Assembly (NCBI GenBank): GCA_003599255.1
Contig: QZJF01000005.1
Location: forward strand, 32,985 to 96,984
Direction of reading: 5' to 3'
Origin: a candidate division WWE3 bacterium
Lineage (GTDB): Bacteria > Patescibacteriota > WWE3 > UBA101185 > UBA10185
DNA: 64,000 nt
Part shown: positions 5,771 to 47,555 of the stretch, one piece after another
How positions within the stretch are numbered: the stretch's first letter is position 1
Layout: every line of letters begins with the position of its first letter
Position numbers and translations under genes: made by a program
The notes under the pieces: model-generated
The model's database searches: none
The model's input: the letters and a program-made list of their open reading frames with translations, nothing else
Told to the model about the DNA's origin: nothing

Positions 5771-8700
5771 TTAATAACCGAAATTGACACTACCGGCGTT
5801 AAAGTCGGTTCTGATTTGGTCTGCGGTAAGAGGGTAGTTGTAAACTTTAACCTCGTCTACCAGTCCGTTAAAGAAATTTTGAGTAGTATTTAATGCCCCA
5901 ATAGTAAAAGGGGAAGTACTATCAAATATTGAACTAGGACATGTACCGGAGACAGAGGTAAATTGAGCTCGTCCATCGATATATACAATTGGGGTACTTG
6001 CATCGTAGGTAAAAGCAACATGATGCCAGTTTCCTACAACTAGCGGTGTTGTGGTTGTTGTAACCGTGCAACTAGTACCGGTGAAAGGGGCACCGTTGTC
6101 ATCGAGTAAAATGGCTACTCCGCCAAAGGGGTTAATATCAACAGAGTATGATACCTGATTGCCTCCTGCCACCCATTTGCCTATAATGCTTGCATATTCG
6201 AGGACCGTTGGATTAATCCAAGCAGTAATGGATCCCTTGGTGGTTATATCAAAAACGCTGTTATCAGTAACACTAACGTAATCATCGGTTCCGTCAAAAG
6301 CCAGTGACCCGTTTCTTTTACCGGAGGCACCATTGTACCAGGCATCTGAAGCTGACCCCGAACAAGTCCCTGCGGAGCTATGACTTCCGGATCCCCCGAT
6401 TGTAATTGTGCCATTATTGCCTCCGGACTCGTTGTTGGAAGTTCTCGAGGTATCGTTAGCTATGTCACCGCTGCATTCGTCCAATTTAAATTCCGCGACA
6501 GGTGCTCCTCTGTTGTATTCCCAAGCGATTTGTGCCGCAGTTCGAGGGTAGTTGTAGATTCTAACATCATCAAGTGTTCCGTTCAGTAAATTTGTTGAGG
6601 CTGCCTGAGCTCCAAGCAATACAGTAACGGCATTGGAGGAGGTTGTTGCGGGAATAGTACCGCTGAGAGTTAAAGCTTGTTCTTTTCCGTTGAGATAAAA
6701 CTTGAGCCTACTGGATGTTGCAAGGGAACCGTCGTATACCATGGTCCAAAGGTTCCATGTATCGGTTGTAAGTATATCGCCGGTAGTATAGCCATAGGCA
6801 GCACTTCCGTTGCTTAAGTACAGGACAACGTCATTGTTTCCACTTCCAACAGCTCCGGAACCGGCTTGCATTATTGTTCTGGCCGTGGAGTTTTGCGTTT
6901 TCGAGAAAACTGTAGCAAGGTCGGTGAGTGAATTCTGCTTTACCCATGCGGATACAGTGAATTGGGAAACACCGTCCAAATCATCGAGATCTGCAGTCGA
7001 AATGTATCCGGAAGAACCATCAAATTCGACAGCAGCTCCGATTTTACCCACCGTCCAGCTTGTTCCGGTTTGCAACGTGCCATTCTCGTTTCCGCTGTGT
7101 TCCTGCGCAATATTACTTGCTGTTGTACCTGTATTGTCATCAAGGGGCCAATGTGATATGGGGGCGGAACACGTATCAGAGCTTCCCGGCACACACATAC
7201 TTCTGCTGTCTGAGTAACTAGGTGAACCGGCGGCATCTGTTGATACTGCTCCCCAGGAAGCTGATTTCGCTCTATTAAATAGAAGTTTAATTTGGTCCGA
7301 GGTCAAAGCTGTGTCGTAGAAGGCAGTTTCGTCAATATTTCCGTTAAACTCATCTCCGTTGTCGGTTGCATCAAGGTCGCCAATTATCAGATTTGTGGCA
7401 CCGTCAAGTGAGGTTGTGGCGGAAATTGTAGTGTCGGAGTTTTGGAGTACTCCGTCCACATAAATATCTATTCGGGATGTTAAGGTTTTAACTGCTGTAA
7501 CCATGTGCCATTGGTTGTCGTAAAAATTGCGTGAGGTAGTAGCAGTGTCGTCCGGATTACATGTTGTATCGTCGTCTATTCCAAAGACCAGTTGCCCCGA
7601 AGTATTGAAATACAAAACATATCCTTTTGAGCCGGCAACACATCCTCGTCCTGCCAGATATTCGATAGACGCAGGGGCTGTAGAGGAAGACGACTTTACC
7701 CACATGTTTATGGTAAAACTTCCGGTTCCGAATGAGAATATTCCACTGGTGCTGACAGCCTTGTAAATTCCTGCCACATTATATGCTTTTCCGAATTTTC
7801 CTTCATTAGTCCAGTAACTACCGCTGGCCAAGTTATTCAAATTTAAATCCGCACTGTTTATACTTTCGTCGTAGGCAAGATTCCCGGTTCCCTCATCAAA
7901 TTTCCAATAGGCTATTGCAGATCCTACTGGAGAGCCGGGGACAGGGTGCCCGGCATTCATATCCTCAATTACTTGTGTAGATGTTCTGTCGTAATTATAA
8001 ATTTTAACTTCATCGACAGCTCCGGGCACGTAAGTTGTGTTGGCCCGGCCGATGTAGATATCCGATCCTGAGCCATCGGTTGCCGCTCCGGAAGGAGTCT
8101 GATTTTCCGTAATGGATTGCTTTACCCCGTTTATATAAATGGAAGGGTCATTGCTTGTAGAAGAAGCGTCGTAAGATACGGATATATGTGTCCAGGTTTC
8201 TTTTGGTATGTTGTATCCGGTGGTCCACTCTCCGGACACTGTCGCTCTGTCATAAGTAAAATCAATCCTCATATTATCTCCAGACTGGTCCGTATACCAC
8301 GTTCCTGCACCAGCTCCTAATATTGCCCTCGAGTTGGTATCTCCAAAATCATCCAATTTTACCCATGCAGATACCGTGCCGTTTGTGTAGTAGACGCTAT
8401 CAATTGTTGAGCCGCTTCCCACATTGATGTAGTCAGTACTTCCGTTTAGATCCAGCGCGTTTCCAAATTTACCGTTAATCCAACTCGGTGTGCCGTTTAG
8501 CGTTCCTGTATTTGAGTTTCCGCTGCTATCATAGGCAGTTGCTCCTGTTCCTTCGTCCATTTTCCAATGTCCGACAGGTCCCGGAGCCCAAAGGTATAAT
8601 TGATTTACCTCCCTTTGTGAAAGTAATCTGTTGTATACACGGACCTCATCAAGATTCCCAAGGAAAGTATCAGATGTGGAAGCGGAAAGTGAACCGATAA

Positions 8701-13909: not shown

Positions 13910-13965
13910 TATATAAATTCTAATTTACTGTTTTGTTTAATCCACTAATCCCTGCTGTAGTTCGG

Positions 13966-16900
13966 TTAGTCAAACCTTACGGCTCCGTAATTTATGATAT
14001 CTCTAATTTGCTCCACGGTTAGTGCATAATTAAACACTCTTATATCGTCAACTTGACCATTCGTTCCGTTTGCGGCTGCCGGATTGGAAACCGCAAATAC
14101 TTCTGAGTTGCTAAGATCTTCTAGAGATGTGTCCGAGTAAGAATTATCCAAGCTTCCGTCGACGTATATAAAGTGTCTTGAGGTATCTCTTCCGAATACG
14201 ATGTGATGCCAGTTTCCATCCGCCAAATTCGCTCTGACCTGGGTGTCGACTATGCCGGCAACCGGCTCATCCATTCTTAAAAACCATCCGGATGTGGGAG
14301 TCCTTCGAAATTCATACCCGGCAGCAGCCGCGCCTCTTTTTGAAATCAGGAACTGAGTAGTGTCAGTATCATCGGCTTTCATCCAAAACGATATTGAGAA
14401 AGTTTGGTCTGCGCCAAAGTCAAATATGCCGCTGGACGGATCACCCATGGTTACGTAATCATCATCCCCGTCAAAACCTAGTGATGAGTTTATTTTTCCA
14501 GAGGTGCCATCATTCCACATTTCAGTAGAAGTTCCGGATCCGCAGGTACCCGCGGAAGTATTGCCACTGGCGCCGGGTGTAATTGTACCGTTGTTGCCAT
14601 TTCCACTAGAGTCATATGCAGTTGTTCCCGAACATTCGTCAAATTTCCACCAACCTATCGGGCTGCCCTTGTTATATTCCCACGCGACCTGGGCAGGGGA
14701 ACGCGCGTAATCATAAAGTGTGACGTTATCAATTATCCCGTTCCAGTAGAAAGTGGAATTTTGTTGACCTATTCTTGACTCTGCGGACCCTCCATTTAGA
14801 CTGTTTGTTGCGGAGAAATCTGTGTCACTTGCGAGTAATTTTCCGTCAATATAGAGACTTACCGTAGTTCCACTAAATACAAGTGTGGCCATGTGCATTT
14901 TTCCGTCACTAAGACTTGTCGTAGTGTCAGTTAGGGTCTGAGCGGCCCCTCCGGAATCACGATAATCTACGCTTAAATACCGGCCGGAGTTTCTGGTTCC
15001 AAAGCCGAATCTTACATCTGAATTTGATGTTCCGGTCAGCACAAACAGTCTGCTTATGCCCGTACCTATTGAGTTATCTTTTAGCCAAAAGTTAAGAGTT
15101 GCTGCTGTATCGGTAGAGACGTAAAAGTTGCTTGATGTGCCTACATTTATATAATCACTGGAACCGTCTAAAAGTAGGCAACTGCCGGATTTACATGAGC
15201 CTGCATGACTCCATGAAGGATCGCTCGAATCAGAACCGGAAGTTGTACCAAGAGTTCCGTTATTACCACTACCGCTTGTGTCATAGGGAACTTGTCCCGT
15301 CTTTTCATCAAATTTCCACTCAGCAATTGGAGAGGTACAAGCCGACCCCTGACCCGGAGGACAGTACTCATTAGCAGACGACCATGTTGGATTGTTAGAT
15401 GAGTTGGTTCCGGTTGACCCAAAGACGGATACCATGCCTGCGTTGTGGGAAGTTTTTACCTGATCATCTGTCAGTGCAAATTTATATATCTTTGTTGAGT
15501 CGAGAAAACCGTCATAAAAATCACCTGTCACTGTAGTTTTATATGCGCCCAGGGTATCGTAAGCAGTGGTCAGGGTGCCCGCAGTGTAAAGTGTGTTTGT
15601 AAATGTAACGGACTGCGTTGTGGATAATATTCCGTCAACATAAATTTTTATTTGGTCGTTTTGAAAGTCCAATATACCAACGATATGGTGCCATTCAGTT
15701 GGATCCGAAAGGGCAGCAGTAGCTGTTTCCAAAGTTTCAGCAGCAACGCTTCTTCCTGCCACTTCTACACTGTTATCTCCATAAACACTAAGCAAAGCAC
15801 CGGAATTTCCGTCAGCCACATGAAGGCTTATCATACGTCCTCTGGAAGTCCCACCGGGATATGTCTGTGGTTTCATCCATGTTTCAAGTGTAATTGCAGA
15901 GGCTCCGTCTAGCTCGGTGGTTACGGCTCCTACTCCAAAATCAACAATAGAGTCCGAACCGTTAAAGGATAGAGCTTTGCCAAACTTTCCGCTATTTGAC
16001 CATGTAGCAGATGTGATTGTACCGTCCAGATCCGCTCCGCCGTTTCCTGAGTTATGTGCTGTACTGCCGTAACCCTCATCAAGTTTCCAATGCCCTAAAG
16101 CCGAACCTACAGGAGATCCTGGAGCAGGGTGTCCTGCGTTCATATCTTCTATTATCTGAGCACGTGTACGAGCGTAGTTGTATATCCGCACATCGTCAAT
16201 TCCACCATTTTGCATTTCCGATGATGTATCCTCTTCGCCAATGGTTATGTTATCCGAGTTAGACGCATCAGTTGTGGAAATTGATGTATCTGAGCCGTAG
16301 AGTATCCCGTCCACATAAAGATACAACCCTGCCAAGCCCGTTTTGTCACCGTCTCTATCTAAGACACATGCGATATGATGCCATTGACCGTCGTTAATAC
16401 CGGCACCTATATTGTTAGCCGTATCAAAGTTTGTTCCGTCCCCGATATAACAGTTGACTGCGCCCGCACCTCCGCCCTCGGTGTAATAGACCGTATATCC
16501 CGGTGCGTTCAATGCATCAGAGAAGCCCTTGTTTATTAGCTTTGTGCCGGCCTCGCTTTGTGTGATACGTGTCCATAATGTGTATGTGAAATCACTAGTA
16601 TCGGTTAAATCCAATAAGCCACTGGCCGGATCGGATATTGTGGTTACATCTTGAGCACCGTCCTGTGATGCCAGCATCGCAGACCCATACTTACCGAGCC
16701 CCCATCCGCTATTTGATAAAGTTCCGTTGTTCCCGTTTCCGGATGTGTCATATACTGTTGTGCCGGTATTTTCGTTAAAATTCCAGTATCCCGCGGGACC
16801 GGGTGTCCAAGCATAAAGATTCTCCACCTCATCATGGCTAACGGGTCTGTTGTATATTCTCACTTCGTCAATTTTTCCGTCAAATCTTTCGTCCTGACCC

Positions 16901-39300: not shown

Positions 39301-42300
39301 CCCGATCCGCTAACTGCACCAACACCTGAAACGGAGTTGCACTCCCACCTGTCAGCTCCTGCGTTCCAGACCAATAGCTCATTGTCTGAACATCCGCCAA
39401 GAAGTCTAAGTCCGTCCGCTGTTACTTCAAGACCCGAATTTGAGGCTGTTGTTGAGGTTGTTCCTGTGGTAGTTGCATCTATAGTTATGTCATCTGTATT
39501 AACAGTTATCCCATCCCCGGCGCCGACATTAAGGGTTAATGACCCCGGACCTGTTCCGACATTTGTCAGTCCGTCACCCCCAAACACCGAGGTTACTGCA
39601 TAAGAAGATACATTGTTACTGTCAACCAAAGTGCCTGATCTACCTTGTAGCAGATTTAGTTCTGAAGTAGTAATAAGTGCGCCGTTAAGAATATTTATTT
39701 CGGATGCGTCTGCCGTAACTTGAGTTCCGTTTAGATAGAGCGAGGTCATGTTGACGGCTCCGTTAACGTCCAAAGTATAAGAAGAGCCCGGATTGGTAGT
39801 GCCAATTCCGACTCTGGTTCCGTTGTCATAAATAACACCTGTGGAAAGTGTGTTTTCATCGATCCATCTGGCCACATAATTTGTAATACCGGTTCCGTCA
39901 GTGAAGTTAAGTATCGGAGCTGTTGAGGCAGCTGTTAATCTCCCTTCGGCGTCGACTGTGAATACCGGAATGCCTGTTGATGATCCGTATGTACCTGCGC
40001 CTACTCCGGTATCGGAAAGGTCCAGTGTTCCCGTTGAGTCTATAGTTGCGTCGCCGCCCATGGCTTTGACGTTCCATCCTGTGCCTGTGCCAATTAATAA
40101 TGTTCCGGATGGTGCAGTCGAGGTATCAAGACCGGTACCGCCGTATGCAACTCCAAGCTGATTTGAAACGTTAGAGGTATTGGACAAATCTATGGCACTC
40201 TGGGTCAAAACCTGTGATGCTGCATTCAAAGAAAGATAGTTGGCTGTACCTGCTAACTGAAGTGCAGGATGTGTGTCCGATGCTAAAGAGTAGTTTAAGA
40301 AATTGGCGTCCAGGTCATTTAGTACTGCCTGAACATTTGTGCTGTTCGAGAAATCAAACTCATCATTAACTCCCACTAAATATGCACCGGATGTGGTTGG
40401 AGCGGAAGTGCTGCTGAGACCTATGGAACCTACCAGGAAGTCCGAACCTGATGCAACCCTTACATCACCGTTTACATCAAGTGCAAAAGCCGGCGCTGTA
40501 GTACCTATACCCAGTCTGCTAAGCGTTGAATCCCAGAAGAAATTATCGCTTCCGGTTAATGACGATGTACCGTTCCAGAAAGTAACTTGTCCTGCAGATC
40601 CCGATCCGCTTACCGCACCCACGCCTGAAACGGAGTTGCATTCCCATCTGTCAGCACCAGCATTCCAGACTAACAACTCGTTGTTTGAACATCCCCCCAG
40701 TAGTCTGAGACCACTTGCAGTAACTTCCAACCCTGAGTTTGATGCAGTTGTTGAGGTTGTTCCGGTCGTAGTTGCATCTATTGTTATGTCATCTGCGTTT
40801 ACTGTGATGCCGTCTCCCGCACCTACGTTCAAAGTTAATGATCCCGGTCCTGTACCAACATTTGTTAAGCCATTTCCGCCCAAAACTGATGTGACAGCAT
40901 AAGAAGAAACATTGTTGCTATCCAGCAATGTGCCTGATCTTCCCTGTAAAAGATTAAGTTCGGTTACGGTAATCAGTGCGCCGTCCAGTATGTTCAATTC
41001 GGCCGCAGTTGAGGTAACCTGTGACCCGTTGAGATACAAAGCAGTAGTGTTTACGGCACCGTTCACATCCAAAGCGTATGTTGCCCCGGGGTTTGTAGTG
41101 CCGATTCCAACTCTGGTTCCGGTGTCATATATAACTCCGGTTGCGAGAGTATTGTTGTCGGTCCATCTGGCAACATAATTTGCAAGTCCCGTTCCGTCTA
41201 CAATATTCAGGAGTGGGGAAGTGGTCACGGATGTTAATCGTCCTTTTGAATCAACCGTGATTACGGGAACACTTGTTGAGGATCCGTAGGTTGCAGCTGT
41301 AACACCTGTATTGGCTAATGTCAGAGTACCTGTTGAATCTATTGTTGCATCTCCTCCCATGGCTTTAACGTTCCATCCGGTTCCGGTACCAAGCAGAAGT
41401 GTTCCGGAAGGAGCTGTAGAAGTATCAAGTCCGGTACCGCCGTAAGCAACACCAAGCTGATTAGAAACATTTGAAGTATTAGAAAGATCAATGGCATTTT
41501 GAGTTAAAACCTGAGAAGGGCCGTTCAAAGAAAGATAATTTGCCGTTCCTGCAAGTTGTAATGCAGGATGTGAATCTCCGGCCAAAGTACCGAACTGAGC
41601 GTCCAGATCATTAAGCACTGCCTGTACATTTGTTGAATCTGAGTAAGTAAATTCATCATTTACACCGATGAGATAGGCACCGGAAGTGGTTGGTGCAGAA
41701 GTGCTGCTTAGTCCAATTGAGCCTATCAATAAATCGGAGCCTGCGGCAATTCTAATATCGCCGTTTACGTCCAGAGCGAAGGCAGGAGCGGTTGTGCCTA
41801 ATCCAAGTCTGTTTGTGTTGTTGTCCCAGAAGAAGCTGTCGCTGCCGGTTATTGATGAGGTTCCATTCCAGAACGTCACTTGTCCGGTTGCTCCTGATCC
41901 GTTGACAGCGCCAATTCCTGAAACTGAGTTGCATTCCCATCTGTCTGCTCCGGCGTTCCATACTAAGAGCTCACTGTTAGAGCATCCGCCGAGTAATCTA
42001 AGTCCGTCTGCAGTCACTTCCAATCCTGAATTTGATGCAGTAGTTGAGGTTGTTCCGGTTGTGGTCGCATCGATTGTAATGTCATCAGCATTAACGGTGA
42101 TGCCGTTGCCCGCACCGACATTTAGTGTCAGAGATCCCGGACCTGTTCCTGCATTTGTTAATCCACTGCCGCCAAGGACAGAGGTTACAGCATAGGAAGA
42201 CACATTGTTGCTATCGAGTAAAGTACCGGAGCGGCCTTGCAATAGATTGAGTTCGGAAGTCGTAATTAAAGCACCGTCCAAAATGTTGAGTTCTGCCGCC

Positions 42301-45300
42301 GATGAGGTAACCTGTGAACCGGAAAGATATAAGGAAGTCGTATTTATTGCTCCGTTTACATCTAAAGCATATGTGCTATTAGGGCTTGTGGTTCCTATAC
42401 CGACAACGCCGTTTGTATCTATGACAAAGGGTGTTAAATCTCCAGCCGAATCATTAACCAGAAAAGCGTATCCCGAAGGAGCTGTACTCGTAATAGTGAA
42501 TAATCCGCCATCTACATCAAAGAAGAATGGGGAAGTGCTGTCTTCGCCGCCGATTGCTACATCATCCGTGGTAGCTGTTAAAAATGTTATTGCGCCGTTG
42601 TCAGTCCATTTGGAAGCTCCTGCACCTATTGCTGCGTCCAAGTCATTGAGAACAGCTTGTACATTTGTAGCGTTGCTGTTATTAAATTCATCAAAGACTC
42701 CTACGACATAAGCGCCGGATGCAGTAGCACTGGCCGAGTCACCGATACCGATATTTCCGATTATGAAGTCGGAACCTGATGCAACCCTCACATCTCCGTT
42801 TACGTCAACTGCATATGCAGGAGCAGTGGTTCCTATGCCCAGTCTGCTAAGAGTTGAATCCCAGAAAAAGTTATCACTTCCGGTTAAGGACGATGTACCG
42901 TTCCAGAAAGTAACCTGCCCTGTTGCTCCGGATCCGTTGACTGCACCGACACCTGATACAGAATTGCATTCCCATCTATCGGCAAGTGCGTTCCAGACTA
43001 ACAGTTCGTTATTTGAACATCCTCCGATCATTCTTAAACCGGAAGCTGTTACTTCCAACCCCGAATTCGAAGCAGTTGTAGAAGTTGCACCGGTTGTAGT
43101 TGCGTCTATGGTGATGTCATTAGCATTAACGGTAATCCCGTCACCTGCGCCGATGTCGAGAGTTAATGCCCCTGTGGTGCCGCCGCCGGTTAAACCTGAT
43201 CCTGCAGTTACTGCGGTTGTAGCATAAGAACTGACATTGGACGAATCCACCAAGGTTCTTGTGCCCCAGAACAGATCTCCGGTGGGGGATCCTGCGGCTG
43301 CTGATGTATTTAAAACATTGTTTAGTCCTGCTGTCCCCAGTCTGATCGCTCCTGTTACGTCAAGTATTTCAGAAGGACTTGATGTTCCCACACCTACACT
43401 TGTGCCATTGTCAAAAAGTATTCCTGTGGAAAGATTTGTGGGGTCAGTCCATCGCGCTACATAATTTGCGATTCCTGTTCCGCCTAAAGATTGTGATATA
43501 GGGGCCGTGCTGGCAGAAGTAATTCGACCTTTTGCATCTACTGTTATGACAGGAATACCTGTAGTGGATCCGTAGGTTGCCGCGGAGACTCCGGTATTTG
43601 CAAGAGTAAGTGTGCCGGTAGAGTCAATGGCTGCATCTCCGCCCATTGCTTTTACATTCCAACCTGTGCCTGTGCCGATTAAAAGAGTTCCGGACGGTGC
43701 AGTGGAGGTATCAAGACCTGTACCACCGTATGCAACACCGAGTTGATTTGAAACATTAGACGTATTGGAAAGATCTATTGCACTTTGAGTTAGAACTTGT
43801 GACGCTGCGTTAAGTGATAAATAGTTTGCGGTGCCTGCTAATTGAAGTGCAGGGTGCGTATCCCCGGATAGAGTAGAGAGCTGCGCATCCAGATCGTCCA
43901 GCACATCCTGAACTGTGGTACCTGCGGAATAAGTAAATTCATCAAAGACTCCTACTCTTGACGCACCCGAGTCTGTATTTGAAGTGCCTGTATCGTTGAG
44001 TCCGATTGTCCCTATGTATAGATCCGAGCCGGAGGCAATTCTTATGTCTCCGTTCACATCAAGTGCGTAAGCGGGAGCCGTTGTACCGATACCAAGTCTG
44101 CTGGTGTTGCTGTCCCAGAAGAATGCGTCAGTTCCTGTTACAGATGAAGTGCCGTTCCAATAGGTTACCTGACCGGCTGATCCGGACCCGCTTACTGCTC
44201 CCACTCCTGAAACCGAGTTGCATTCCCATCTGTCGGCACCCGCGTTCCATACGAGCAGCTGGTTATTTGCGCATCCTCCCAGCATTCTTAAACCTGATGC
44301 TGTCACTTCCAGCCCTGAATTAGATGCTGTAGTTGAAGTTGCACCGGTCGTGGTCGCGTCAATCGTTATGTCGTCCGCGTTGACTGTTATGCCGTTTCCG
44401 GCTCCCACATTAAGAGTTAAAGATCCGGGGCCGGTTCCTACATTTGTTAAACCATTTCCGCCTAAAACCGAGGTTACTGCGTACGATGCAATGTTATTGT
44501 TATCCAGAAGTGTTCCCGTACGACCGGAAAGGAGATTGAGTTCCGATGTGGTAACAAGTGCGCCGTCAAGAATGTTCAATTCCGAAGCATCCGCAGTAAT
44601 CTGGGAATCATTCAGGTAGAGTGCAGTCATGTTTACCGGTCCATTTACATCAAGTGTGTAGGTAGGGTCAGGACTAGTTGTACCGATACCAACTGTTGTG
44701 CCGTTGTCATAGATGATGCCTGTTGTCAGAGAATTGCTGTCTGTCCATCTTGCCACATAGTTTGTTAGCCCGGTTCCGTCAACTATGTTTATAAGAGGGG
44801 AAGTGGCTGCGGAAGTTATTCTTCCCTCAGCATCAACTGTAACTACCGGTATACCTGTTGATGATCCGTATGTACCCGCTGCGACTCCGGTATCGGAAAG
44901 ATCCAGTGTTCCGGTATTGTCTATTGTCGCGTCACCTCCCATGGCTTTCACATTCCAACCGGTTCCGGTGCCGATCAGGAGAGTTCCCGAAGGGGCGGTT
45001 GATGTGTTAAGGCCGGTACCCCCGTATGCTACACCCAATTGGTTGGAGACATTTGAAGTATTTGAAAGATCTATGGCGCTTTGAGTTAGCACCTGTGAAG
45101 CTGCGTTAAGCGACAGATAATTTGCGGTGCCCGCCAACTGCAGTGCCGGGTGTGTATCTCCCGACAGAGTAGAGAGTTGTGCATCTAAATCGTCAAGTAC
45201 ATCTTGAACATTCGCACCGTTTGAGTAAGTAAATTCATCATTTGTGCCTACCAGATATGCTCCGGATGTTGTCGGGGAAGCGGTGTCTGTTAGACCGATT

Positions 45301-47555
45301 GACCCTATATGTAAATCCGAGCCGGAGGCAACCCTCACATTGCCGTTAACATCAAGAGAATACTGTGGATTTGTTGTTCCAATACCCACATTCCCCGAAC
45401 CATCTATGACAAAGGGTGTCGTATCAGCTGAACTATCGTTCACTCTAAACGAAAAACCGGATGTTGTGTTTGTCAGCGTTAATAGTTCATTTGTTATATC
45501 CAGGAAAAACGGAGAGCCCGGTTCACTTCCGCCTATCGATAAGTTTTGTGAGGTGGACACCGGGTGAATTGTCCCTGAGGTTACTGTCCATATTCCGCTT
45601 CCACCGCCGATTGCTGCGTTGTATGCGGTATTTATTGCGTCTACTATAGCTGTGTCTCCGCTGTCAAAATCTGTGTCAATATCTGTCATGGTGATTGGGG
45701 AGGTAAGTGTCGCGTCGTCGAAAGTAAGTGTGGTACCGCTTATACTTATTGCGTCTCCACCATCACCCAGATTAACTGGGCCGTTTGCTACAAGTGCTCC
45801 GGAAGAAATGGTCACGCCACCGCCTATTGTCATCCATTGGGAGAAAGTAGATGTGCCGTTTACGGTTAAAAGTTCGGTTCCCGGGTTCCATGTTATTTGA
45901 GTATCATCGTTTGTCAGTGTTCCGGCACTATCGGCAAAGAAAACTCCGTATGGATCAAATCCCGTGGTTGTAATAGGTCCAATGACCGATCCGTAAATTG
46001 TTCCCCCAACTTCCAGACTACCTTCGATGTATTGACTTTCTGACATACCTCCAACATAAGTAGGTGCTGTTGAGCCGTCCCCGATGTGAAGGGTTGTCAC
46101 GGGGCTTGTTGTTGAAATACCTACCCTTCCTGTTTCAGTAATCCTTAATCTCGTTATGTCGTTAGTTCTAAATGAAAGTCCTACATTGTCAGTGGTACCG
46201 ATAAAGTCTACATCGGGATCCGATCCGGCATTTCCTGCCAGAAGCCAGGAAATATCTCCAAAAAAAGTGGAAGTATTGGACCACTCCGGGGTTGTGCCAT
46301 CAGATGTCAAAATGTATCCGTTTGTTCCGGTTATTGAAATTACGGATAAGGTGTTAGAAGCCGAAGCGTACAAAAGATCCCCGGTTGTGTACGATGTCAA
46401 CCCAGTTCCTCCATTTTCAGGAGCTATTTCTGTACCTTGCCATACACCCGTGGTTATTGTGCCAAGTTGTGTAATTTCAGTCTGAGGTACGCTGGTCCAA
46501 TCACCATCAACTGCCATAATTATATTGTCATCATCTGTCGATAAGTCTCCAAAGGTGGCACCGTTAATGCTGACAACAGTTACATTACCCAGTCCGGTAC
46601 CTTCCACATCCCCACCGATATCAAGAGCTTCCTCTAAAGTTGTTTCGGTGACTTCATTGATAGCTCCCAAGTTGTTCAATGCCGCCGTTCCGATAAAGTT
46701 TACTTCTCCGGCGGTTATGGCTCCGGTTCCAAAATTCGCATCGGCGTTGTTTGTAGTAATGCCGCCTAGGAGAGAGGACAATTCATTAACAGTCAGGTCT
46801 TTTTCAAGTGTAATTGTCTCTCTAAATATCCCGGGCACACTAAGTCTGAACACAAAGTTTGCGTTTCGATCAACCGCAGCCAGAACATTGTCATAGAATG
46901 ACATCTTACCGGACTGCGGTACTTCTTTTCTTTGCGCAAATGCGCCTGATATTACGTGTACAAAATTATCTTTAAAACCCATGAAGGTTAGCAATCCAAA
47001 TGCAAAAACGATGAATATTATAATGCCCCCTATCTTTGTGAGTTTAGGATTTATGTGTATATGACTAAGAATGACGGATTTTCGTTTAATATCATTTAAC
47101 TTTGTCACTTCTTCAGGAATACTAGTGTCAGTCTTTGTCGCATTGATTTCATGATCAGCTTTTGTTTGTGCACCTAAATCCTGTTTCAATTTATTTTGCG
47201 AAAGAGCTTTCAATGTTCCTGTAAGGTTTAAAAGATCCGCTCTTGGAGACGCTTGAGGAACAGGAATGGAAGTAGTGGAAGAGTTAGTATTTTTTTTGAG
47301 ATCGGCTTTTTGATTGTTTAAATCCGTTTTCAGATTTAAAACATCACTGCGTTTAAACATTCTATACCCGTTAGGTTGTCGGATGGAGTTTACTTTATTC
47401 TCGCTTTCAAATCTGCGGAGAGTTGAAGAAGATACGCCTAATAACTTAGCTGCCTCGGAAACATTTAAAAGTTGTTTGGTAGATATGCTTGAAGAACTAT
47501 GTGATTTACTTGCAGGTTTTTTTCGTCTTTTTCTTTGGGCAGAAACTGAGCTCAT
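30279..47555 (-). CDS. Giant tail-fibre-like surface protein 4 (5758 aa): N-terminal Xis/MerR-type HTH, TM helix, reiterated fibre modules, C-terminal peptidase S74 intramolecular-chaperone domain, coiled-coil/(STE)5 tail
   Basis: Uninterrupted 17.3-kb ORF preceded by an AAGGA RBS. Residues 27–76 (LLNVSEAAKLLGVSSSTLRRFESENKVNSIRQPNGYRMFKRSDVL) match the excisionase/MerR-type HTH_17 pattern. The TM helix is IGGIIIFIVFAFGLLTFMGF at residues 175–194. About 5000 aa follow, made of three module types with recurrent GIGTT(S/N/A)Px..LDVNG motifs. Near the C-terminus LSSSERFKKDISDLDINLDSVLQLNPVTFKWN...FGLIAEQVEQVMPFLV matches the S74/endosialidase chaperone domain. Confidence 0.85.
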   Translation of the reverse strand: MSSVSAQRKRRKKPASKSHSSSSISTKQLLNVSEAAKLLGVSSSTLRRFESENKVNSIRQPNGYRMFKRSDVLNLKTDLNNQKADLKKNTNSSTTSIPVPQASPRADLLNLTGTLKALSQNKLKQDLGAQTKADHEINATKTDTSIPEEVTKLNDIKRKSVILSHIHINPKLTKIGGIIIFIVFAFGLLTFMGFKDNFVHVISGAFAQRKEVPQSGKMSFYDNVLAAVDRNANFVFRLSVPGIFRETITLEKDLTVNELSSLLGGITTNNADANFGTGAITAGEVNFIGTAALNNLGAINEVTETTLEEALDIGGDVEGTGLGNVTVVSINGATFGDLSTDDDNIIMAVDGDWTSVPQTEITQLGTITTGVWQGTEIAPENGGTGLTSYTTGDLLYASASNTLSVISITGTNGYILTSDGTTPEWSNTSTFFGDISWLLAGNAGSDPDVDFIGTTDNVGLSFRTNDITRLRITETGRVGISTTSPVTTLHIGDGSTAPTYVGGMSESQYIEGSLEVGGTIYGSVIGPITTTGFDPYGVFFADSAGTLTNDDTQITWNPGTELLTVNGTSTFSQWMTIGGGVTISSGALVANGPVNLGDGGDAISISGTTLTFDDATLTSPITMTDIDTDFDSGDTAIVDAINTAYNAAIGGGSGIWTVTSGTIHPVSTSQNLSIGGSEPGSPFFLDITNELLTLTNTTSGFSFRVNDSSADTTPFVIDGSGNVGIGTTNPQYSLDVNGNVRVASGSDLHIGSIGLTDTASPTTSGAYLVGTNDEFTYSNGANVQDVLDDLDAQLSTLSGDTHPALQLAGTANYLSLNAASQVLTQSAIDLSNTSNVSNQLGVAYGGTGLNTSTAPSGTLLIGTGTGWNVKAMGGDATIDNTGTLDLSDTGVAAGTYGSSTGIPVVTVDAEGRITSAATSPLINIVDGTGLTNYVARWTDSNSLTTGIIYDNGTTVGIGTTSPDPTYTLDVNGPVNMTALYLNDSQITADASELNILDGALVTTSELNLLSGRTGTLLDNNNIASYAVTSVLGGNGLTNVGTGPGSLTLNVGAGNGITVNADDITIDATTTGATSTTASNSGLEVTASGLRMLGGCANNQLLVWNAGADRWECNSVSGVGAVSGSGSAGQVTYWNGTSSVTGTDAFFWDSNTSRLGIGTTAPAYALDVNGDIRIASGSDLYIGTIGLNDTGTSNTDSGASRVGVFDEFTYSAGTTVQDVLDDLDAQLSTLSGDTHPALQLAGTANYLSLNAASQVLTQSAIDLSNTSNVSNQLGVAYGGTGLDTSTAPSGTLLIGTGTGWNVKAMGGDAAIDSTGTLTLANTGVSAATYGSTTGIPVITVDAKGRITSASTAPISQSLGGTGIANYVARWTDPTNLSTGILFDNGTSVGVGTSSPSEILDVTGAIRLGTAGLNNVLNTSAAAGSPTGDLFWGTRTLVDSSNVSSYATTAVTAGSGLTGGGTTGALTLDIGAGDGITVNANDITIDATTTGATSTTASNSGLEVTASGLRMIGGCSNNELLVWNALADRWECNSVSGVGAVNGSGATGQVTFWNGTSSLTGSDNFFWDSTLSRLGIGTTAPAYAVDVNGDVRVASGSDFIIGNIGIGDSASATASGAYVVGVFDEFNNSNATNVQAVLNDLDAAIGAGASKWTDNGAITFLTATTDDVAIGGEDSTSPFFFDVDGGLFTITSTAPSGYAFLVNDSAGDLTPFVIDTNGVVGIGTTSPNSTYALDVNGAINTTSLYLSGSQVTSSAAELNILDGALITTSELNLLQGRSGTLLDSNNVSSYAVTSVLGGSGLTNAGTGPGSLTLNVGAGNGITVNADDITIDATTTGTTSTTASNSGLEVTADGLRLLGGCSNSELLVWNAGADRWECNSVSGIGAVNGSGATGQVTFWNGTSSITGSDSFFWDNNTNRLGLGTTAPAFALDVNGDIRIAAGSDLLIGSIGLSSTSAPTTSGAYLIGVNDEFTYSDSTNVQAVLNDLDAQFGTLAGDSHPALQLAGTANYLSLNGPSQVLTQNAIDLSNTSNVSNQLGVAYGGTGLDTSTAPSGTLLLGTGTGWNVKAMGGDATIDSTGTLTLANTGVTAATYGSSTSVPVITVDSKGRLTSVTTSPLLNIVDGTGLANYVARWTDNNTLATGVIYDTGTRVGIGTTNPGATYALDVNGAVNTTALYLNGSQVTSTAAELNILDGALITVTELNLLQGRSGTLLDSNNVSSYAVTSVLGGNGLTNVGTGPGSLTLNVGAGDGITVNADDITIDATTTGTTSTTASNSGLEVTASGLRLLGGCSNNELLVWNAGADRWECNSVSGVGAVSGSGSAGQVTFWNGTSSLTGSDNFFWDSTLSRLGIGTTAPAFALDVNGDVRVASGSDFLVGSIGLSSTSAPTTSGAYLVGVNDEFDFSNSTNVQAVLNDLDANFLNYSLASDTHPALQLAGTANYLSLNAASQVLTQSAIDLSNTSNVSNQLGVAYGGTGLDTSTAPSGTLLIGTGTGWNVKAMGGDATIDSTGTLDLSDTGVGAGTYGSSTGIPVFTVDAEGRLTAASTAPILNFTDGTGITNYVARWIDENTLSTGVIYDNGTRVGIGTTNPGSSYTLDVNGAVNMTSLYLNGTQVTADASEINILNGALITTSELNLLQGRSGTLVDSNNVSSYAVTSVFGGDGLTNVGTGPGSLTLNVGAGDGITVNTDDITIDATTTGTTSTTASNSGLEVTADGLRLLGGCSDNELLVWNAGADRWECNSVSGVGAVSGSGAIGQVTFWNGTSSLTGSDSFFWDSSLNRLGIGTTAPAFALDVNGDVRVASGSDFFVGSIGLSSTSAPTTSGAYLVGVNDEFDFSNSTNVQAVLNDLDANFLNYSLAGDTHPALQLAGTANYLSLDAASQILTQSAIDLSNTSNVTNQLGVAYGGTGLDTSTAPSGTLLIGTGTGWNVKAMGGDATIDSTGTLDLSDTGVGAGTYGSSTGIPVFTVDAEGRLTSASTAPLLNITDGSGIANYVARWTDDNTLSTGLLYDTGTLLGLGTTAPAFKLDVNGDVRVASGSDFFVGSIGLSSTSAPTTSGAYLIGVNDEFDFSNSTNVQAVLNDFDANFLNYSLAADTHPALQLAGTANYLSLNGSQVLTQSAIDLSNTSNVSNQLGVAYGGTGLDTSTAPSGTLLIGTGTGWNVKAMGGDATIDSTGTLDLSDTGVGAGTYGSATGIPVITVDSEGRLTAASTSPLLNITDGSGIANYVARWIDSNTLSTGIAYDTGTYFGIGTTNPNQELHVVGVGTAILADGFNQTTGIDIALRSNIRTWNLGVDGSGTATTQGEFWISDGQSTLKRLLIDGSGYVGIGTTNPVERLDVSGGIRLGTAGTNNILNTSAAAGSPTGDLYWGSDVIVDSSNVSTYATTGVTAGSGLTGGGTTGVLTLDIGAGDGITVNANDITIDATTTGTTSVTASNSGLEVTADGLRLLGGCSNGEALTWDTTLQVWKCSSVAAGLTGAGTIGQVAFWDGTSSITGSDSFFWDSNTSRLGLGTTAPAFTLDVNGDVRVASGSDFFVGSIGLSSTSAPTTSGAYIIGVNDEFDFSNSTNVQAVLNDLDANFLNYSLAGDTHPALQLAGTANYLSLSAASQILTQSAIDLSNTSNVSNQLGVAYGGTGLDTSTAPSGSILLGTGTGWNVKAMGGDATIDSTGTLDLSDTGVGAGTYGSATGIPIITVDAEGRLTSASTAPLLNVTDGTGITNYVARWTDENTLSTGILYDNGTNVGVGTTNPAYILDVYSGSTTGGLGVFADSVTTGTGALFSFDGLTTGTGLSISSTSSSFSTGTLAAVDWSPLSSATASGDLFSINIGSNGSLTGNLFAVYDDGAAVFTVQQNQIESAVPHVFTAAGDVSFSYDAIFTNQTSAQIESYGPFSIIAGESFESNNLTLRTYGTGNIIADLGGNFVLYDNDPTLVFDTETATDTDFWMGILENSDNTDNDLLVIGDGTSSGTNPFFAITTSGDIGIGTTNPAAKLEINGAIRLGGETIGDFVGSGLIVSGTALSLDVTTTSTTSTTAANSGLEVTADGLRLLGGCADGEALIWDSSREVWDCTAVAAGLSGSGTAGQVAFWDGSTSLTGNDSLFWDSGTSRLGLGTTAPDAILHAVGGDLYVAPDSGYTFDNASAAEDLYVFGNLEIDGTIYGNTASLGQIDIGGESIGDFVGDGLIVSGTALSLDVTTTSTTSTTASNSGLEVTADGLRLLGGCSNGEALTWDTSQEVWKCSSVAAGLTGSGSIGQVAFWDGTSSITGSDSFFWDTSTGRLGLGTTAPAFTLDVNGDIRIASGSDLLIGSIGLSSTSAPTTSGAYLVGVNDEFDFSNSTNVQAVLNDLDANFLNYSLASDTHPALQLAGTATYLSLDGSQVLTQSAIDLSSSLNVSNVLGTTNGGTGLDTSTAPSGSLLIGTGTGWNVKAMGGDATIDSTGTIDLSDTGVAAGTYGSTTGIPIVTVDAEGRLTSASTAPLLNITDGTGIANYVARWTDNNTLSTGILYDDGTNVGVGTTNPSYMLEVFSGSTTGGLGVFADSVTTGTGALFSFDGLTTGTGLSISSTSTAFSTGTLAAVDWSPLSSATASGDLFSINIGSNGSLTGNLFAVYDDNSPLFTITQSQITSYLPHTFSSAGDVSFSYDAIFTNQTSSQIESYGPFTIIAGESFENNDLTLRTYGSGDIVADLGGNFVLYDNDPTLLFDVESGTDTDFWMGVLEDSDSTDDDIFAIGDGLSSGTNPFFVINTSGNIGIGTTNPAATLDVNGTIRLGGETIGDFVGNGLILSGTALSLDVATTSTTSTTASNSGLEVAADGLRLLGGCGNGELLTWDSSQQVWKCSPEAGSGTITGTGVAGRVSFWDGSSSLASSQDFYWDNINSRMGIGNSSPQDTLHINGGFRIQESGYSSYTSIDTYSLGVGSGTMRFFADGTNGLSYDFRDQFGSIFNIGSGTNDSTFNYGLNVNGDTTLGDDSSDTLTLNAGTWISSNTASLNLAASTTALNIESGLMNFDTTNARVGIGTVTPQNKLDISGNAVIGSYAGTDTAPANGLLVSGNVGIGTTAVGYQLDVRSATTQGALGVFADNVTTGTGALFSFDGLTTGTGLSVSSTSTTLAGALTSIDWSPISSSTATGDLFKINIGSNGTLDGGNLFGVYDDNSELFTINQTVITSYLPHSFAAAGDVSIANDIQFTGQSSSYIKTYAPLYLEVGESHESNNLTLRTFNSGDVVLDAAGGVTLNQAQAWSLATSTTALNFGNNLLNLDTTNDRIGIGTTTPQNTLDVFGNAAFGTYAGVSTAPTNGLIVSGNVGIGTSEPGYTLDVNGTARVSNIPTGTGTALYFDSNNQLIQLSSSERFKKDISDLDINLDSVLQLNPVTFKWNSTTVTPDVEDFGLIAEQVEQVMPFLVSYEADGITPKGVKYDRLGVVLLGALQEQQIQIDSFGDVMGITTQLQTDVQDTYQQVTDTTVGFDTRITTLESEFAQLTQNYDNLGNDFITLEEEVDNVKNDVALIKELLGMGSSTQSTESTESTESTESTESFNLLTLLTDPMGILNQIETLYNDFKDMVSELGLQNNDGQLAVTTDLNVTGDTTLSNLVVTGDLMAGLVEIDSLSNSIGIVGPSCYNETLGTTNQVLCEAQTLYLQKELSGNLDIFDGKIVLEPNGTLTVDGTINAEKVVADEFSVKGTSTLVGSGTITAGQTEVLIANTNVKAGSKIFVTATSSTNGQALIVKEKIDGTSFKVGLDVPHFQDISFDWWILNVE
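32000..45500 (-). repeat. Large intragenic tandem repeats in giant gene 4 (about 0.65–2.3 kb units, at least 8 copies of modules A/B and 3 copies of module C)
   Basis: Opposite-strand shadow ORFs with near-identical translations recur at 34546, 36835, 38338, 39004, 40339, 41686, 42763 and 44218 (MLFEKSNSSLTPTKYAPEVVGAEVLL...). A second shadow series appears at 33151 and 35266. Protein blocks such as TSTTASNSGLEVTA(S/D)GLRLLGGCSNNELLVWNAGADRWECNSVSG are repeated at least 6 times with about 85–95% identity. Confidence 0.8.

What the first reader, a model, noticed from the sequence alone, without database searches (positions are those of the whole stretch)
5771..47555. Array of four co-directional giant surface-protein genes (13,861 codons, about 65% of the window)
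Four giant ORFs are read head-to-tail with tiny gaps: an 11–29 nt overlap between gene 4 and gene 3, 163 nt between genes 3 and 2, and 56 nt between genes 2 and 1. All four begin with a Lys/Arg-rich tail and one TM helix and are Thr/Ser/Gly/Asn/Asp-rich, which suggests extracellular β-rich proteins. Genes 1–3 are paralogs built from 10–15 LamG/ConA-like lectin domains each, recognisable by the recurring (L/V/I)DE(V/I)R(I/V)YN...(S/T)xx(E/Q)(I/V) strand. Gene 4 is a tail-fibre-like megaprotein. This is a large investment for what looks like a reduced genome. An operon of membrane-tethered lectin or fibre giants looks like a cell-surface attachment or host-interaction apparatus, for example for an episymbiont. 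As far as I can tell it is not a described system.
Basis: partly seen in the sequence, partly recalled or inferred. Interest (0 to 1): 0.85.

Follow-up and report, generated by a model that had tools for sequence, protein, structure and literature searches.

The report
Giant fibre-plus-lectin surface gene cassette
A small-genome WWE3 (CPR) bacterium spends 42 kb beside its ribosomal-protein genes on one 5,758-residue phage-tail-fibre-like membrane protein and three 2,400–3,000-residue multi-lectin proteins. This gene set recurs in related genomes and most likely builds the cell's attachment surface.

Summary
Four intact minus-strand ORFs (2712, 2987, 2404 and 5758 aa) fill 5771–47555 with the stated gaps.

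Corrections:
- Genes 1–3 carry 8, 9 and 8 LamG domains, not 10–15.
- DUF2341 is only a sub-threshold match.

Gene 4 has a cytoplasmic MerR-type HTH, one TM helix and about 5,150 aa of shuffled fibre modules. It ends with a Peptidase_S74 intramolecular chaperone (Ser-Lys dyad intact) and a conserved tailspike-like C-terminal domain. Its repeats are 82–93% identical in protein but synonymously saturated (dN/dS 0.03–0.09). That means real, old, constrained coding sequence rather than an assembly artefact.

The organism is a WWE3/Katanobacteria-like CPR bacterium. Related genomes keep the same locus: ATPase operon, then HTH-fibre, then 0–3 LamG giants, then rplJ. Fibre genes are followed by LamG giants in at least 10 distinct loci.

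An exhaustive search shows a wider family of HTH–TM–fibre giants (2,000–7,185 aa). I found no description of it in the literature I could search.

Giant LamG/DUF2341 surface proteins of CPR/DPANN are already known, and so are cellular S74 fibres (Bdellovibrio MAT). The finding is therefore a new variant of a known kind. A host or glycan attachment function is inferred, not shown.

The parts
30279..47555 (-). Gene 4 (g4): 5,758-aa HTH-TM-fibre giant
   Evidence: Intact ORF. Pfam MerR and Peptidase_S74 pass their cutoffs. Orthologous 7,185-aa protein P0162 sits in the same locus of a 994-kb contig.
47325..47471 (-). g4 aa 29-77: MerR-type winged HTH, predicted cytoplasmic
   Evidence: PF00376 E 9.5e-8, 32.2 bits against a 28.2 cutoff. 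Best PDB sequence matches are CueR and BldC 6ama. It lies in a +18 net-charge tail before the TM helix.
46971..47033 (-). g4 aa about 175-195: the single TM helix (signal anchor)
   Evidence: Only hydrophobic segment in 5,758 aa. Family members place a TM helix at a similar position, aa 110-360.
32856..45158 (-). g4 aa about 800-4900: shuffled fibre modules X (8 copies), Y (9 copies, each with a Cys pair) and Z (3 copies, the third at aa about 5077-5300, just past this range). The motif G[ILV]G[TN][TSAN]xP recurs 20 times across g4 as a whole.
   Evidence: Motif map. DNA repeats are only 60-80% identical. Protein copies are 82-93% identical with pS about 0.70 and dN/dS 0.03-0.09. Motif count.
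31347..31514 (-). g4 aa 5348-5403: Peptidase_S74 intramolecular chaperone with S-x-x-x-x-K dyad (SSERFK)
   Evidence: PF13884 E 2e-11. The dyad motif is present in g4 and relatives. 257 phage tail-protein records match this segment only.
30282..30938 (-). g4 aa about 5540-5758: conserved C-terminal domain ending FDWWILN. The last ~70 aa form a tailspike-like beta-sandwich.
   Evidence: Conserved in P0162, P0172, P0181, P0262, P0269, P0274 and P0308-P0322. K1-lyase_C scores 23.5 bits, below the 27-bit cutoff. AF2 pLDDT is 85-93 for the last ~70 aa, and Foldseek hits phage tailspike/depolymerase C-terminal domains at E 2.5e-3 to 0.1.
23093..30289 (-). Gene 3 (g3): LamG giant with 8 LamG_3 domains. 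Probable ATG start at 30289 overlaps the g4 stop by 11 nt.
   Evidence: It is 45% identical over 99% of its first 830 aa to P0121, which lies in a three-gene head-to-tail LamG array on L024.
13966..22929 (-). Gene 2 (g2): LamG giant with 9 LamG_3 domains, a unique W-rich insert (aa about 480-890) and six ~48-aa propeller-like repeats (aa about 1610-1900)
5771..13909 (-). Gene 1 (g1): LamG giant with 8 LamG_3 domains and a unique ~480-aa insert in the CBM-like module
47604..47632 (-). Promoter-like site TTGACA-17-TATCAT (11 of 12), about 50 nt upstream of the g4 ATG
   Evidence: Comparable TTGAC...TAnnAT sites lie upstream of the orthologues in L001, L002, L026 and L027. This is a consensus match only.
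5556..5732 (-). Downstream boundary: ribosomal protein L10 leader RNA, showing that rplJL keeps its own regulatory leader after the array
   Evidence: Rfam RF00557, 63.5 bits against a 44-bit gathering score.

Best explanation
The region is a conserved, chromosomal 'surface fibre plus lectin' cassette of a WWE3/Katanobacteria-like CPR bacterium.

Gene 4 encodes a type-II (N-in) membrane protein. A small MerR/BldC-like HTH stays in the cytoplasm and one TM helix anchors the protein. About 5,150 residues of phage-tail-fibre-like modules are exported. By analogy with phage fibres and Bdellovibrio MAT fibres, these modules trimerise from the C-terminus under control of the S74 intramolecular chaperone, which then cuts itself off at Ser5348. 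If packed like Bd3182 (about 0.07 nm per residue), the fibre would be about 0.3 µm long, comparable to the cell itself.

Genes 3, 2 and 1 are translationally or transcriptionally linked to gene 4. They encode paralogous exported proteins. Each has a DUF2341-like N-terminal domain, a CBM-like jelly roll holding a different inserted domain in each paralog, and 8-9 highly diverged LamG lectin domains. Together they would give multivalent, multi-specific glycan binding.

The most likely role is recognition of, and adhesion to, the surface of a host cell or other glycan-coated substrate.

Shown: ORFs, domain content, topology signals, purifying selection, conserved locus and conserved gene pairing. 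Inferred: trimerisation, autocleavage, glycan binding, the host-attachment role and any function of the HTH.
For: Domains:
- LamG_3 x8/9/8.
- MerR HTH and S74 above Pfam cutoffs.
- The S74 Ser-Lys dyad is kept in g4 and relatives.
- Relatives swap S74 for a Peptidase_G2-type chaperone but keep the same C-terminal domain.
- The C-terminal beta-sandwich resembles phage tailspike and depolymerase C-terminal domains.

Topology:
- One TM helix each.
- Basic N-terminal tails, acidic ectodomains, and every Cys in a close pair outside the membrane.

Real and constrained:
- g4 repeat copies are 82-93% identical in protein, with pS about 0.70 and dN/dS 0.03-0.09.
- GC3 equals that of flanking genes.

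Conservation:
- The same locus (M50, nusG, L11, L1, ATPase operon on the opposite strand, HTH giant, LamG gene or genes, L10) occurs in WWE3 genomes and in a 994-kb contig.
- The gene immediately after the fibre's C-terminal domain is a 2,438 to >3,335-aa LamG giant in 10 metagenomic loci (5 distinct). In one further distinct set (L035-L037) a gene with the same N-terminal module follows ~4.6 kb downstream.
- Family member P0217 fuses a LamG_3 domain into an HTH fibre.

Precedent:
- Bdellovibrio MAT fibres are cellular S74 fibres that bind prey glycans (PMC10769870).
- CPR/DPANN giant LamG/DUF2341 proteins are interpreted as host-attachment factors.
Against: - There are no expression, localisation or binding data, and no host is known for this lineage.
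- Both AlphaFold runs were poor (mean pLDDT 52 and 46). Fibre geometry and the insert folds are therefore unverified, and trimerisation could not be modelled.
- S74 cleavage would remove a conserved ~400-aa C-terminal piece whose conservation is then unexplained.
- The cytoplasmic HTH has no role in a pure adhesin model.
- Genes 1-3 may be secreted rather than anchored. They have a possible V-x-A signal-peptidase site and no LPXTG or other anchor.
- In some relatives the fibre gene is followed directly by rplJ with no LamG gene, so the partnership is not obligatory.
Confidence: 0.6

Rival explanations
1. General envelope coat: the four proteins are structural components of the cell envelope (an S-layer-like or glycocalyx scaffold that gives the fibrous surface seen on CPR cells). 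They would not be specific host-recognition adhesins.
For: The array costs about 42 kb and sits next to highly expressed ribosomal genes at a fixed chromosomal position across the clade. The g4 repeat modules are under strong purifying selection, which suits a structural role. Vampirococcus giant proteins are linked to a fibrous cell surface.
Against: The domains are typical receptor-binding modules: LamG, CBM-like, and tail-fibre/tailspike parts with S74 or G2 chaperones. Gene number (0-3 LamG genes), fibre length (2,204-7,185 aa) and the inserted domains all vary between relatives. That pattern suits specificity determinants better than a uniform lattice. No S-layer (SLH or similar) domains were found.
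Confidence: 0.15
2. Nutrient capture: the lectin arrays and the fibre bind free or particulate polysaccharide for feeding, in line with the glycan-metabolism genes that flank the array.
For: The flanks encode GH57, glycogen synthase, a GalT-like enzyme, alpha-amylase and GH113. LamG_3 and CBM-like modules commonly accompany glycoside hydrolases.
Against: No catalytic glycoside-hydrolase domain was detected inside any of the four giants. The flanking enzymes look like ordinary glycogen-metabolism genes. In relatives they are simply neighbours of rplJL, whether or not LamG genes are present.
Confidence: 0.1
3. Phage remnant or assembly artefact: gene 4 is a prophage tail-fibre gene, or the giant ORFs are chimeras produced by mis-assembly of repeats.
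For: S74, the tailspike-like C-terminal domain and GGTG-type motifs are phage-like. g4 is highly repetitive.
Against: No phage genes are nearby; the neighbours are housekeeping genes in conserved synteny. In 50,697 phage records only the S74 segment matches, at 25% coverage or less. In 2.9 million IMG/VR contigs only 2 matches were found, again to S74 alone. DNA repeats are 60-80% identical, too diverged to collapse in assembly, and their synonymous sites are saturated with dN/dS 0.03-0.09. GC3 equals the flanks. A 7,185-aa orthologue exists in the same locus elsewhere.
Confidence: 0.03
4. Signalling add-on, not exclusive of the best explanation: the HTH-TM-fibre protein is a contact-sensing, membrane-tethered DNA-binding protein. 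Fibre engagement or proteolysis would change what the cytoplasmic HTH does, either by transcriptional control or by tethering the nucleoid at the attachment site.
For: The HTH passes the MerR cutoff and resembles minimal DNA binders such as BldC and excisionases. It is conserved at the N-terminus of at least 17 giants (1,974-7,185 aa) among 22 hits of ≥1,000 aa, in one or more (often two) tandem copies as read from the sequences, and almost always followed by one TM helix. An M50 site-2 protease gene lies in the conserved neighbourhood. A 9-nt-arm palindrome lies between the -10 box and the g4 start.
Against: There is no evidence of DNA binding or cleavage. The palindrome sequence is not conserved in relatives. 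The M50 linkage may be incidental, since M50 sits beside secE-nusG. HTH-TM proteins such as RodZ use the HTH for protein contacts (own knowledge). S74 is on the opposite side of the membrane from the HTH, so it cannot release the HTH as it does in MyRF.
Confidence: 0.12

Closest known systems
Bdellovibrio bacteriovorus MAT (mosaic adhesive trimer) fibres (PMC10769870)
   Same: Cellular, not viral, phage-like fibre proteins on the surface of a bacterium that lives off other bacteria. Like 13 of the 21 MAT proteins, g4 carries a Peptidase_S74 chaperone/protease with an S-x-x-x-x-K site. Both are mosaic and modular with variable tips, have several paralogs per genome, and have a recurring Gly/Pro loop motif along the fibre.
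   Different: MAT proteins are about 1,000 aa with a cleaved signal peptide and a conserved ~130-aa N-terminal domain. g4 is 5,758 aa, starts with a cytoplasmic HTH plus a TM anchor, and carries about 350 further residues after S74 (coiled coil plus a conserved domain). The published capping-loop consensus has 0 exact matches in g4; a variant one residue shorter occurs 20 times. There is no BLAST-level homology outside S74. MAT genes are not paired with LamG giants.
Phage tail fibres and tailspikes with C-terminal intramolecular chaperones (K1F endosialidase, T5 L-shaped fibre; Peptidase_S74 and Peptidase_G2 families)
   Same: S74 domain with the dyad. Family relatives use a G2-type chaperone instead. 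A tailspike-like terminal beta-sandwich and GGTG-type motifs are shared with many tail-fibre proteins.
   Different: The context is chromosomal housekeeping genes in conserved synteny. The protein has an N-terminal HTH and TM anchor instead of a virion-attachment domain, and is 5-10 times longer. Phage and IMG/VR collections match only the S74 segment.
Giant LamG/DUF2341/FhaB surface proteins of CPR bacteria and DPANN archaea (Patescibacterium danicum PMC11809585; Vampirococcus PMC8080830; nanohaloarchaea PMC10266531)
   Same: Ultra-small, reduced-genome organisms invest in >2,000-aa membrane or surface proteins rich in LamG and DUF2341-type domains, interpreted as host-recognition or attachment factors. 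The N-terminal module of g1-3 has relatives in Chisholmbacteria, Amesbacteria, Dojkabacteria and DPANN.
   Different: Those reports treat single giants. They do not describe a conserved fibre-to-LamG cassette at a fixed locus or HTH-anchored fibres. SPEARE-type giants carry a VirB4-like ATPase that is absent here.
MyRF (myelin regulatory factor), a eukaryotic membrane-bound transcription factor with an S74/ICA domain
   Same: One polypeptide combines a DNA-binding domain, a TM helix and a phage-type S74 trimerisation/autocleavage domain (mentioned in PMC10769870; domain order from own knowledge).
   Different: In MyRF the S74 domain lies between the DNA-binding domain and the TM helix on the cytosolic side, so cleavage releases the transcription factor. 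In g4 the S74 domain is about 5,150 residues away on the extracellular side and cannot release the HTH.
RodZ-type HTH-TM-ectodomain proteins (own knowledge)
   Same: N-terminal cytoplasmic HTH, a single TM helix and an extracytoplasmic C-terminal part.
   Different: RodZ has an XRE-type HTH that binds MreB and a small periplasmic domain. There is no sequence relationship and no fibre.

Membership tests
Laminin_G_3 / ConA-like lectin (PF13385) | Profile match above the Pfam gathering score, as repeated ~155-aa jelly-roll domains | tested here: met
   g1 542.7 bits, g2 483.9 and g3 568 against a 27.6-bit cutoff. There are 8, 9 and 8 full-length copies by an HMM built from the window's own domains.
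DUF2341 (PF10102) | Profile match above the gathering score (23.4 bits) in the N-terminal domain | tested here: inconclusive
   Scores are 13.6, 17.3 and 21.4 bits at the same place in g1, g2 and g3. Homologous neighbours in L025 and L026 carry recorded DUF2341 hits.
Peptidase_S74 intramolecular chaperone | Profile match above cutoff | tested here: met
   44.4 bits against 22, at g4 aa 5348-5403.
Peptidase_S74 intramolecular chaperone | Catalytic Ser-Lys dyad (S-D/x-x-x-x-K) at the start of the domain | tested here: met
   SSERFK at aa 5348. Equivalent motifs occur in P0162, P0172, P0181, P0262, P0267 and P0269.
Peptidase_S74 intramolecular chaperone | Trimer-dependent autoproteolysis releasing the C-terminal part | not testable with these tools
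   This needs expression of the C-terminal fragment with and without S5348A. The monomer AF2 model was of low confidence.
MerR-family transcription regulators | N-terminal winged HTH matching the MerR profile | tested here: met
   PF00376 32.2 bits against 28.2; PF13411 28.6 against 21.6. CueR is the best PDB match.
MerR-family transcription regulators | C-terminal dimerisation coiled coil plus effector-binding region in a soluble ~130-aa protein | tested here: not met
   The HTH is followed by a polar linker, one TM helix and 5,560 extracellular residues. It resembles minimal BldC/excisionase-type domains only weakly.
Bdellovibrio MAT superfamily | Signal peptide followed by the conserved ~130-aa beta-rich N-terminal domain | tested here: not met
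   The g4 N-terminus is HTH plus linker plus TM helix. No MAT sequence was available for direct comparison; the architecture is read from PMC10769870.
Bdellovibrio MAT superfamily | Capping-loop motif V-G-G/N-pi-x-x-P-x-x-x-L along a trimeric beta-helix | tested here: not met
   There are 0 exact matches. A related G[ILV]G[TN][TSAN]xPxxx[LV] motif, one residue shorter, occurs 20 times in g4 and 0 times in g1-3.
Phage tail fibre (virion component) | Encoded within a phage or prophage gene set | tested here: not met
   The flanks are ribosomal, ATPase and glycogen genes in conserved synteny. Phage and IMG/VR collections match only the S74 segment.
SPEARE-type DPANN giants | VirB4/TraG-like ATPase domain plus Ig-like arrays | tested here: not met
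   No such Pfam hits were found in any of the four proteins.
Sortase-anchored or T1SS RTX adhesins | C-terminal LPXTG sorting signal, or RTX nonapeptide repeats plus a T1SS signal | tested here: not met
   No LPXTG-like motif in any protein and no GGxGxD motif in g1-3. No related Pfam hits.
TafC haloarchaeal Tat-fimbrial protein (NF052521) | Equivalog score of at least 410 bits | tested here: not met
   213.7 bits spread over six LamG repeats of g1. This is shared-domain similarity only.

The most novel reading that the evidence does not exclude
HTH-TM-fibre giants may be a previously unrecognised class of one-polypeptide, trans-envelope devices of CPR bacteria. In this reading a phage-derived, sub-micrometre trimeric fibre is physically coupled through one TM helix to a cytoplasmic MerR/BldC-like DNA-binding head. 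Host contact, sensed as tension or through regulated intramembrane proteolysis by the neighbouring M50 protease, would then be relayed directly to DNA. The relay could work by transcriptional control or by tethering the nucleoid at the attachment site. The LamG giants would be the dedicated lectin partners of this device.
Probability: 0.12. Interest if true: 0.85.

Novelty: new variant of a known kind. Interest (0 to 1): 0.6.

Why it matters
How ultra-small CPR bacteria find and hold their hosts is largely unknown. So far only type IV pili have been tested genetically, and a recent paper says the mechanisms 'are largely unknown' (PMC11623550 abstract).

This window gives a concrete candidate apparatus that can be searched for:
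- A conserved cassette at a fixed chromosomal position, made of a phage-like fibre anchored by an HTH-TM head plus a variable number of multi-lectin giants.
- Lineage-specific variation in fibre length, chaperone type, inserted domains and gene number. These are the features expected of host-range determinants.

It parallels the Bdellovibrio MAT fibres. If confirmed, it would extend the idea that bacteria living on other bacteria have repeatedly domesticated phage receptor-binding hardware.

The cytoplasmic DNA-binding-type domain on a giant extracellular fibre is unexplained. It offers a testable link between surface contact and the cytoplasm.

Tried and rejected
- AlphaFold2 of g4 aa 5330-5758 with 16 sequences gave mean pLDDT 52. 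Only the last ~70 aa were usable, and Foldseek hits were all above E 1e-3.
- AlphaFold2 of g2 aa 455-1050 gave mean pLDDT 46 and the insert was unresolved. The fold search returned only weak jelly-roll matches (Eph LBD, CBM6). My guess that the g2 insert is a BNR/Asp-box propeller is therefore unsupported; regex found no Asp-box.
- PDB sequence searches of the g1 and g2 inserts found nothing.
- Tandem Repeats Finder found nothing because the g4 periods (700-2,300 nt) exceed its limit. The repeat finder was used instead.
- The exact look-up of the window's AtpD found no record, so the source genome is not in that collection.
- Horizontal transfer was rejected. The higher GC of the giants comes from codon position 2 (amino-acid composition), and GC3 equals the flanks.
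- A diversity-generating retroelement was rejected. No reverse-transcriptase gene is present among the annotated flanks, and no near-identical template/variable repeat pair exists: all repeats are 80% identical or less.
- A prepilin-type signal in g1-3 was rejected. There is no G-F-T-L-I-E-type motif, and Pilin_N scored only E 0.13.
- TafC membership was rejected.
- MerR-style operator: a palindrome exists in the g4 5' leader, but it is not conserved in relatives.
- Literature searches found no description of HTH-TM-fibre giants. The library lacks most subscription journals, so absence is not proof.
Full report

Yes. The mechanical ORF list shows four minus-strand ORFs:
- 5771-13909 (2712 aa, 'g1')
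- 13966-22929 (2987 aa, 'g2')
- 23093-30307 (2404 aa from a TTG, 'g3')
- 30279-47555 (5758 aa, 'g4')

Together they make 13,861 codons and 65% of the window. The gaps are 56 nt and 163 nt. g3's probable ATG at 30289 overlaps the g4 stop by 11 nt (ATGTTGAATAA). A 5,758-codon open frame has a chance probability near 1e-120.

Each protein has one strongly hydrophobic segment near the N-terminus. A basic tail of +10 to +18 net charge precedes it, and an acidic remainder of -168 to -415 follows. Every cysteine sits in a close pair beyond the TM segment. Composition is Thr/Ser/Gly/Asn/Asp-rich.

**2. Domain content and corrections**

- g1-g3 match Laminin_G_3 at E 1e-146 to 1e-172.
- An HMM iterated on the window's own copies finds 8, 9 and 8 domains, not 10-15.
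- The three genes are colinear paralogs at 34-46% identity. LamG domains show positional orthology: L1 pairs with L1 and L2 with L2 (25-32% identity), and L3 with L3 at 47-56%. Other pairs are only 15-30% identical. This points to whole-gene duplication of an old, internally diverged array.
- The N-terminal domain gives consistent but sub-threshold DUF2341 matches of 13.6, 17.3 and 21.4 bits against 23.4.
- Between LamG1 and LamG2 lies a module that begins with a conserved GIFxEExTTNKIxNPSFE motif and ends with a GGGWWRLSY...YVDGFQLEEK motif. It holds a different insert in each paralog. Only its C-terminal jelly-roll part was modelled confidently.
- g2 also has six ~48-aa propeller-like repeats.

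**3. Anatomy of g4**

| Residues | Feature |
|---|---|
| 29-77 | MerR-type winged HTH, above Pfam cutoff; best PDB matches CueR and BldC |
| about 175-195 | The only TM helix |
| about 800-5300 | Three shuffled module types: X (8 copies), Y (9 copies, each with one Cys pair), Z (3 copies). The motif G[ILV]G[TN][TSAN]xP recurs 20 times in g4 |
| 5348-5403 | Peptidase_S74 with the Ser-Lys dyad SSERFK |
| after 5403 | Predicted long helices, an (STE)n linker and a conserved ~200-aa domain ending FDWWILN |

The last ~70 residues of that terminal domain model confidently as a beta-sandwich. It resembles phage tailspike and depolymerase C-terminal domains. The supporting evidence is sub-threshold: Pfam K1-lyase_C at 23.5 bits against 27, and Foldseek E 2.5e-3 to 0.1.

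**4. The ORFs are real and constrained**

The g4 repeats are only 60-80% identical in DNA but 82-93% identical in protein. Synonymous differences are saturated (pS about 0.70) and dN/dS is 0.03-0.09. These are old duplications held by purifying selection, not collapsed or expanded assembly repeats. GC3 of the giants (0.38-0.42) equals that of neighbouring genes. Their higher GC comes from codon position 2, so there is no compositional sign of recent transfer.

**5. Organism and locus**

The flanks are housekeeping genes:
- On one side: GH57, glycogen synthase, a GalT-like gene, L7/L12, and L10 with its Rfam leader.
- On the other side: an F1-type ATPase operon on the opposite strand, then L1, NusG, an M50 protease, FolD and others.

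The first 700 aa of g4 are 41-43% identical to MerR-annotated, contig-truncated proteins of candidate division WWE3. Housekeeping proteins are 55-74% identical to WWE3 genomes.

The same order recurs in two WWE3 assemblies: M50, (secE), nusG, L11, L1, the ATPase operon on the opposite strand, then the HTH giant. A third WWE3 assembly has the HTH giant (2,204 aa) followed by a DUF2341 gene. A 994-kb JGI contig has a 7,185-aa orthologue followed by 1,544-aa and 1,541-aa (LamG) genes and then L10. In a further lineage the rplKAJL cluster is intact, and two HTH giants (3,756 aa with an internal LamG_3, and 4,645 aa) lie beside the same glycogen genes.

**6. A wider family**

An exhaustive HMMER search with g4 aa 1-260 found 591 hits. 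The top 150 include 22 proteins of at least 1,000 aa, and at least 17 of them are 1,974-7,185 aa. Their layout is one or more (often two) tandem HTH copies as read from the sequences, then almost always one TM helix at aa 110-360. One smaller 623-aa hit carries eight tandem HTHs.

Most of the complete giants share the same ending. It consists of an S74 site, or a Peptidase_G2-type chaperone with a DLAEYF motif (PF11962 is recorded in P0318 and P0320), followed by a coiled coil and the FDWW(I/V) domain. Public names are only automatic ones: 'MerR family DNA-binding transcriptional regulator' and 'tail fiber domain-containing protein'.

**7. The fibre-LamG pairing is conserved**

I scanned JGI metagenomes with the C-terminal-domain alignment and scored the downstream ORFs with the window-derived HMMs. 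The results:
- In 10 loci (5 distinct), the gene starting within about 100 nt of the fibre's end is a LamG giant of 2,438 to >3,335 aa with 12-18 domain hits. In one further distinct set (L035-L037), a gene matching only the N-terminal module starts ~4.6 kb downstream.
- Two such pairs lie on one 698-kb contig.
- In one further locus (L042), a single ~4.6-kb gene lies between the fibre end and rplJ, and no LamG-type gene was detected.
- In five others, rplJ follows the fibre directly.

Head-to-tail LamG giants also occur on L004 and L024.

The locus is therefore: ATPase operon, HTH fibre, 0-3 LamG giants, rplJ. This window has the largest LamG complement that I saw.

**8. Not a phage**

tblastn against 50,697 phage records matches only the S74 segment, in 257 records at 25% coverage or less. 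The X-Y module finds six short hits. IMG/VR gives two S74-only hits.

**9. Mechanism (inference)**

g4 is most likely an N-in membrane-anchored fibre. Its ectodomain would trimerise from the C-terminus under the S74 chaperone and then self-cleave, as shown for phage fibres and for Bdellovibrio Bd3182 (PMC10769870). Scaling from Bd3182 (about 55 nm for about 780 residues) gives roughly 0.3 µm. The LamG giants would supply many diverged lectin domains plus paralog-specific inserts.

A surface attachment or recognition role fits what has been proposed for CPR and DPANN giants. It remains untested.

The cytoplasmic HTH is unexplained. A contact-signalling or DNA-tethering role is possible but speculative. 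S74 lies on the other side of the membrane, so a MyRF-like release mechanism does not apply.

**10. Novelty**

The general kinds are known: CPR giant LamG/DUF2341 proteins and cellular S74 fibres. Six literature searches found no description of the HTH-TM-fibre-chaperone architecture, its family, or its conserved pairing with LamG giants beside rplJ. I therefore rate it a new variant of a known kind, of moderate-to-good interest.

Noticed in passing
window 48345-49124 (+): A 259-aa membrane protein is transcribed divergently from g4 and is the first gene of the ATPase operon. It has no Pfam hit even at E<=1. Its aa 56-158 are 32% identical (pairwise E 1e-10) to the Peptidase_G2-type chaperone segment of fibre-family member P0274. 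Genes of 258-292 aa without Pfam hits occupy the same position next to the HTH giant in L001, L002, L026 and the P0162 locus.
   Followed up: partly
window 49154-54163 (+): The ATPase operon encodes a b-like subunit (TM helix plus long helix), delta (weak OSCP match), alpha, gamma and beta. No recognisable a or c subunit was found anywhere in the window.
   Followed up: partly
window 17381-18078 (g2 aa about 1610-1900): Six ~48-aa repeats (WNGELYAGG.F..AGGD.DAD.IAKWNG.SW), with DNA copies 63-80% identical. They look like a six-bladed beta-propeller specific to g2 and absent from g1 and g3.
   Followed up: partly
window 5556-5732 (-): A ribosomal protein L10 leader (RF00557, 63.5 bits) lies directly after the g1 stop. 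The usual nusG-rplKA-rplJL cluster is therefore split here by the ATPase operon plus the 42-kb array, whereas it is intact in relative L027.
   Followed up: yes
window 47565-47596: A palindrome, TCAAATGTT-N8-AACATTTGA, lies between the -10 box and the g4 start codon. Relatives also have inverted repeats in this leader, but with different sequences.
   Followed up: partly
window 34546-43227 (+): Seven plus-strand ORFs of 154-199 aa lie antisense to the g4 repeat modules. They recur because the modules recur and are probably not genes.
   Followed up: no
g1 aa 76-85, g2 aa 61-69, g3 aa 56-66: A conserved V-(E/Q)-A followed by (L/D/Q)-W lies about 8 residues after the hydrophobic segment. It could be a signal-peptidase I site, in which case the LamG giants would be released rather than membrane-anchored (alignment).
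   Followed up: no
L046 and L047 (contig Ga0257125_1000004, 698 kb): One genome carries two separate fibre-to-LamG-giant pairs about 37 kb apart, so the cassette can be duplicated as a unit.
   Followed up: no
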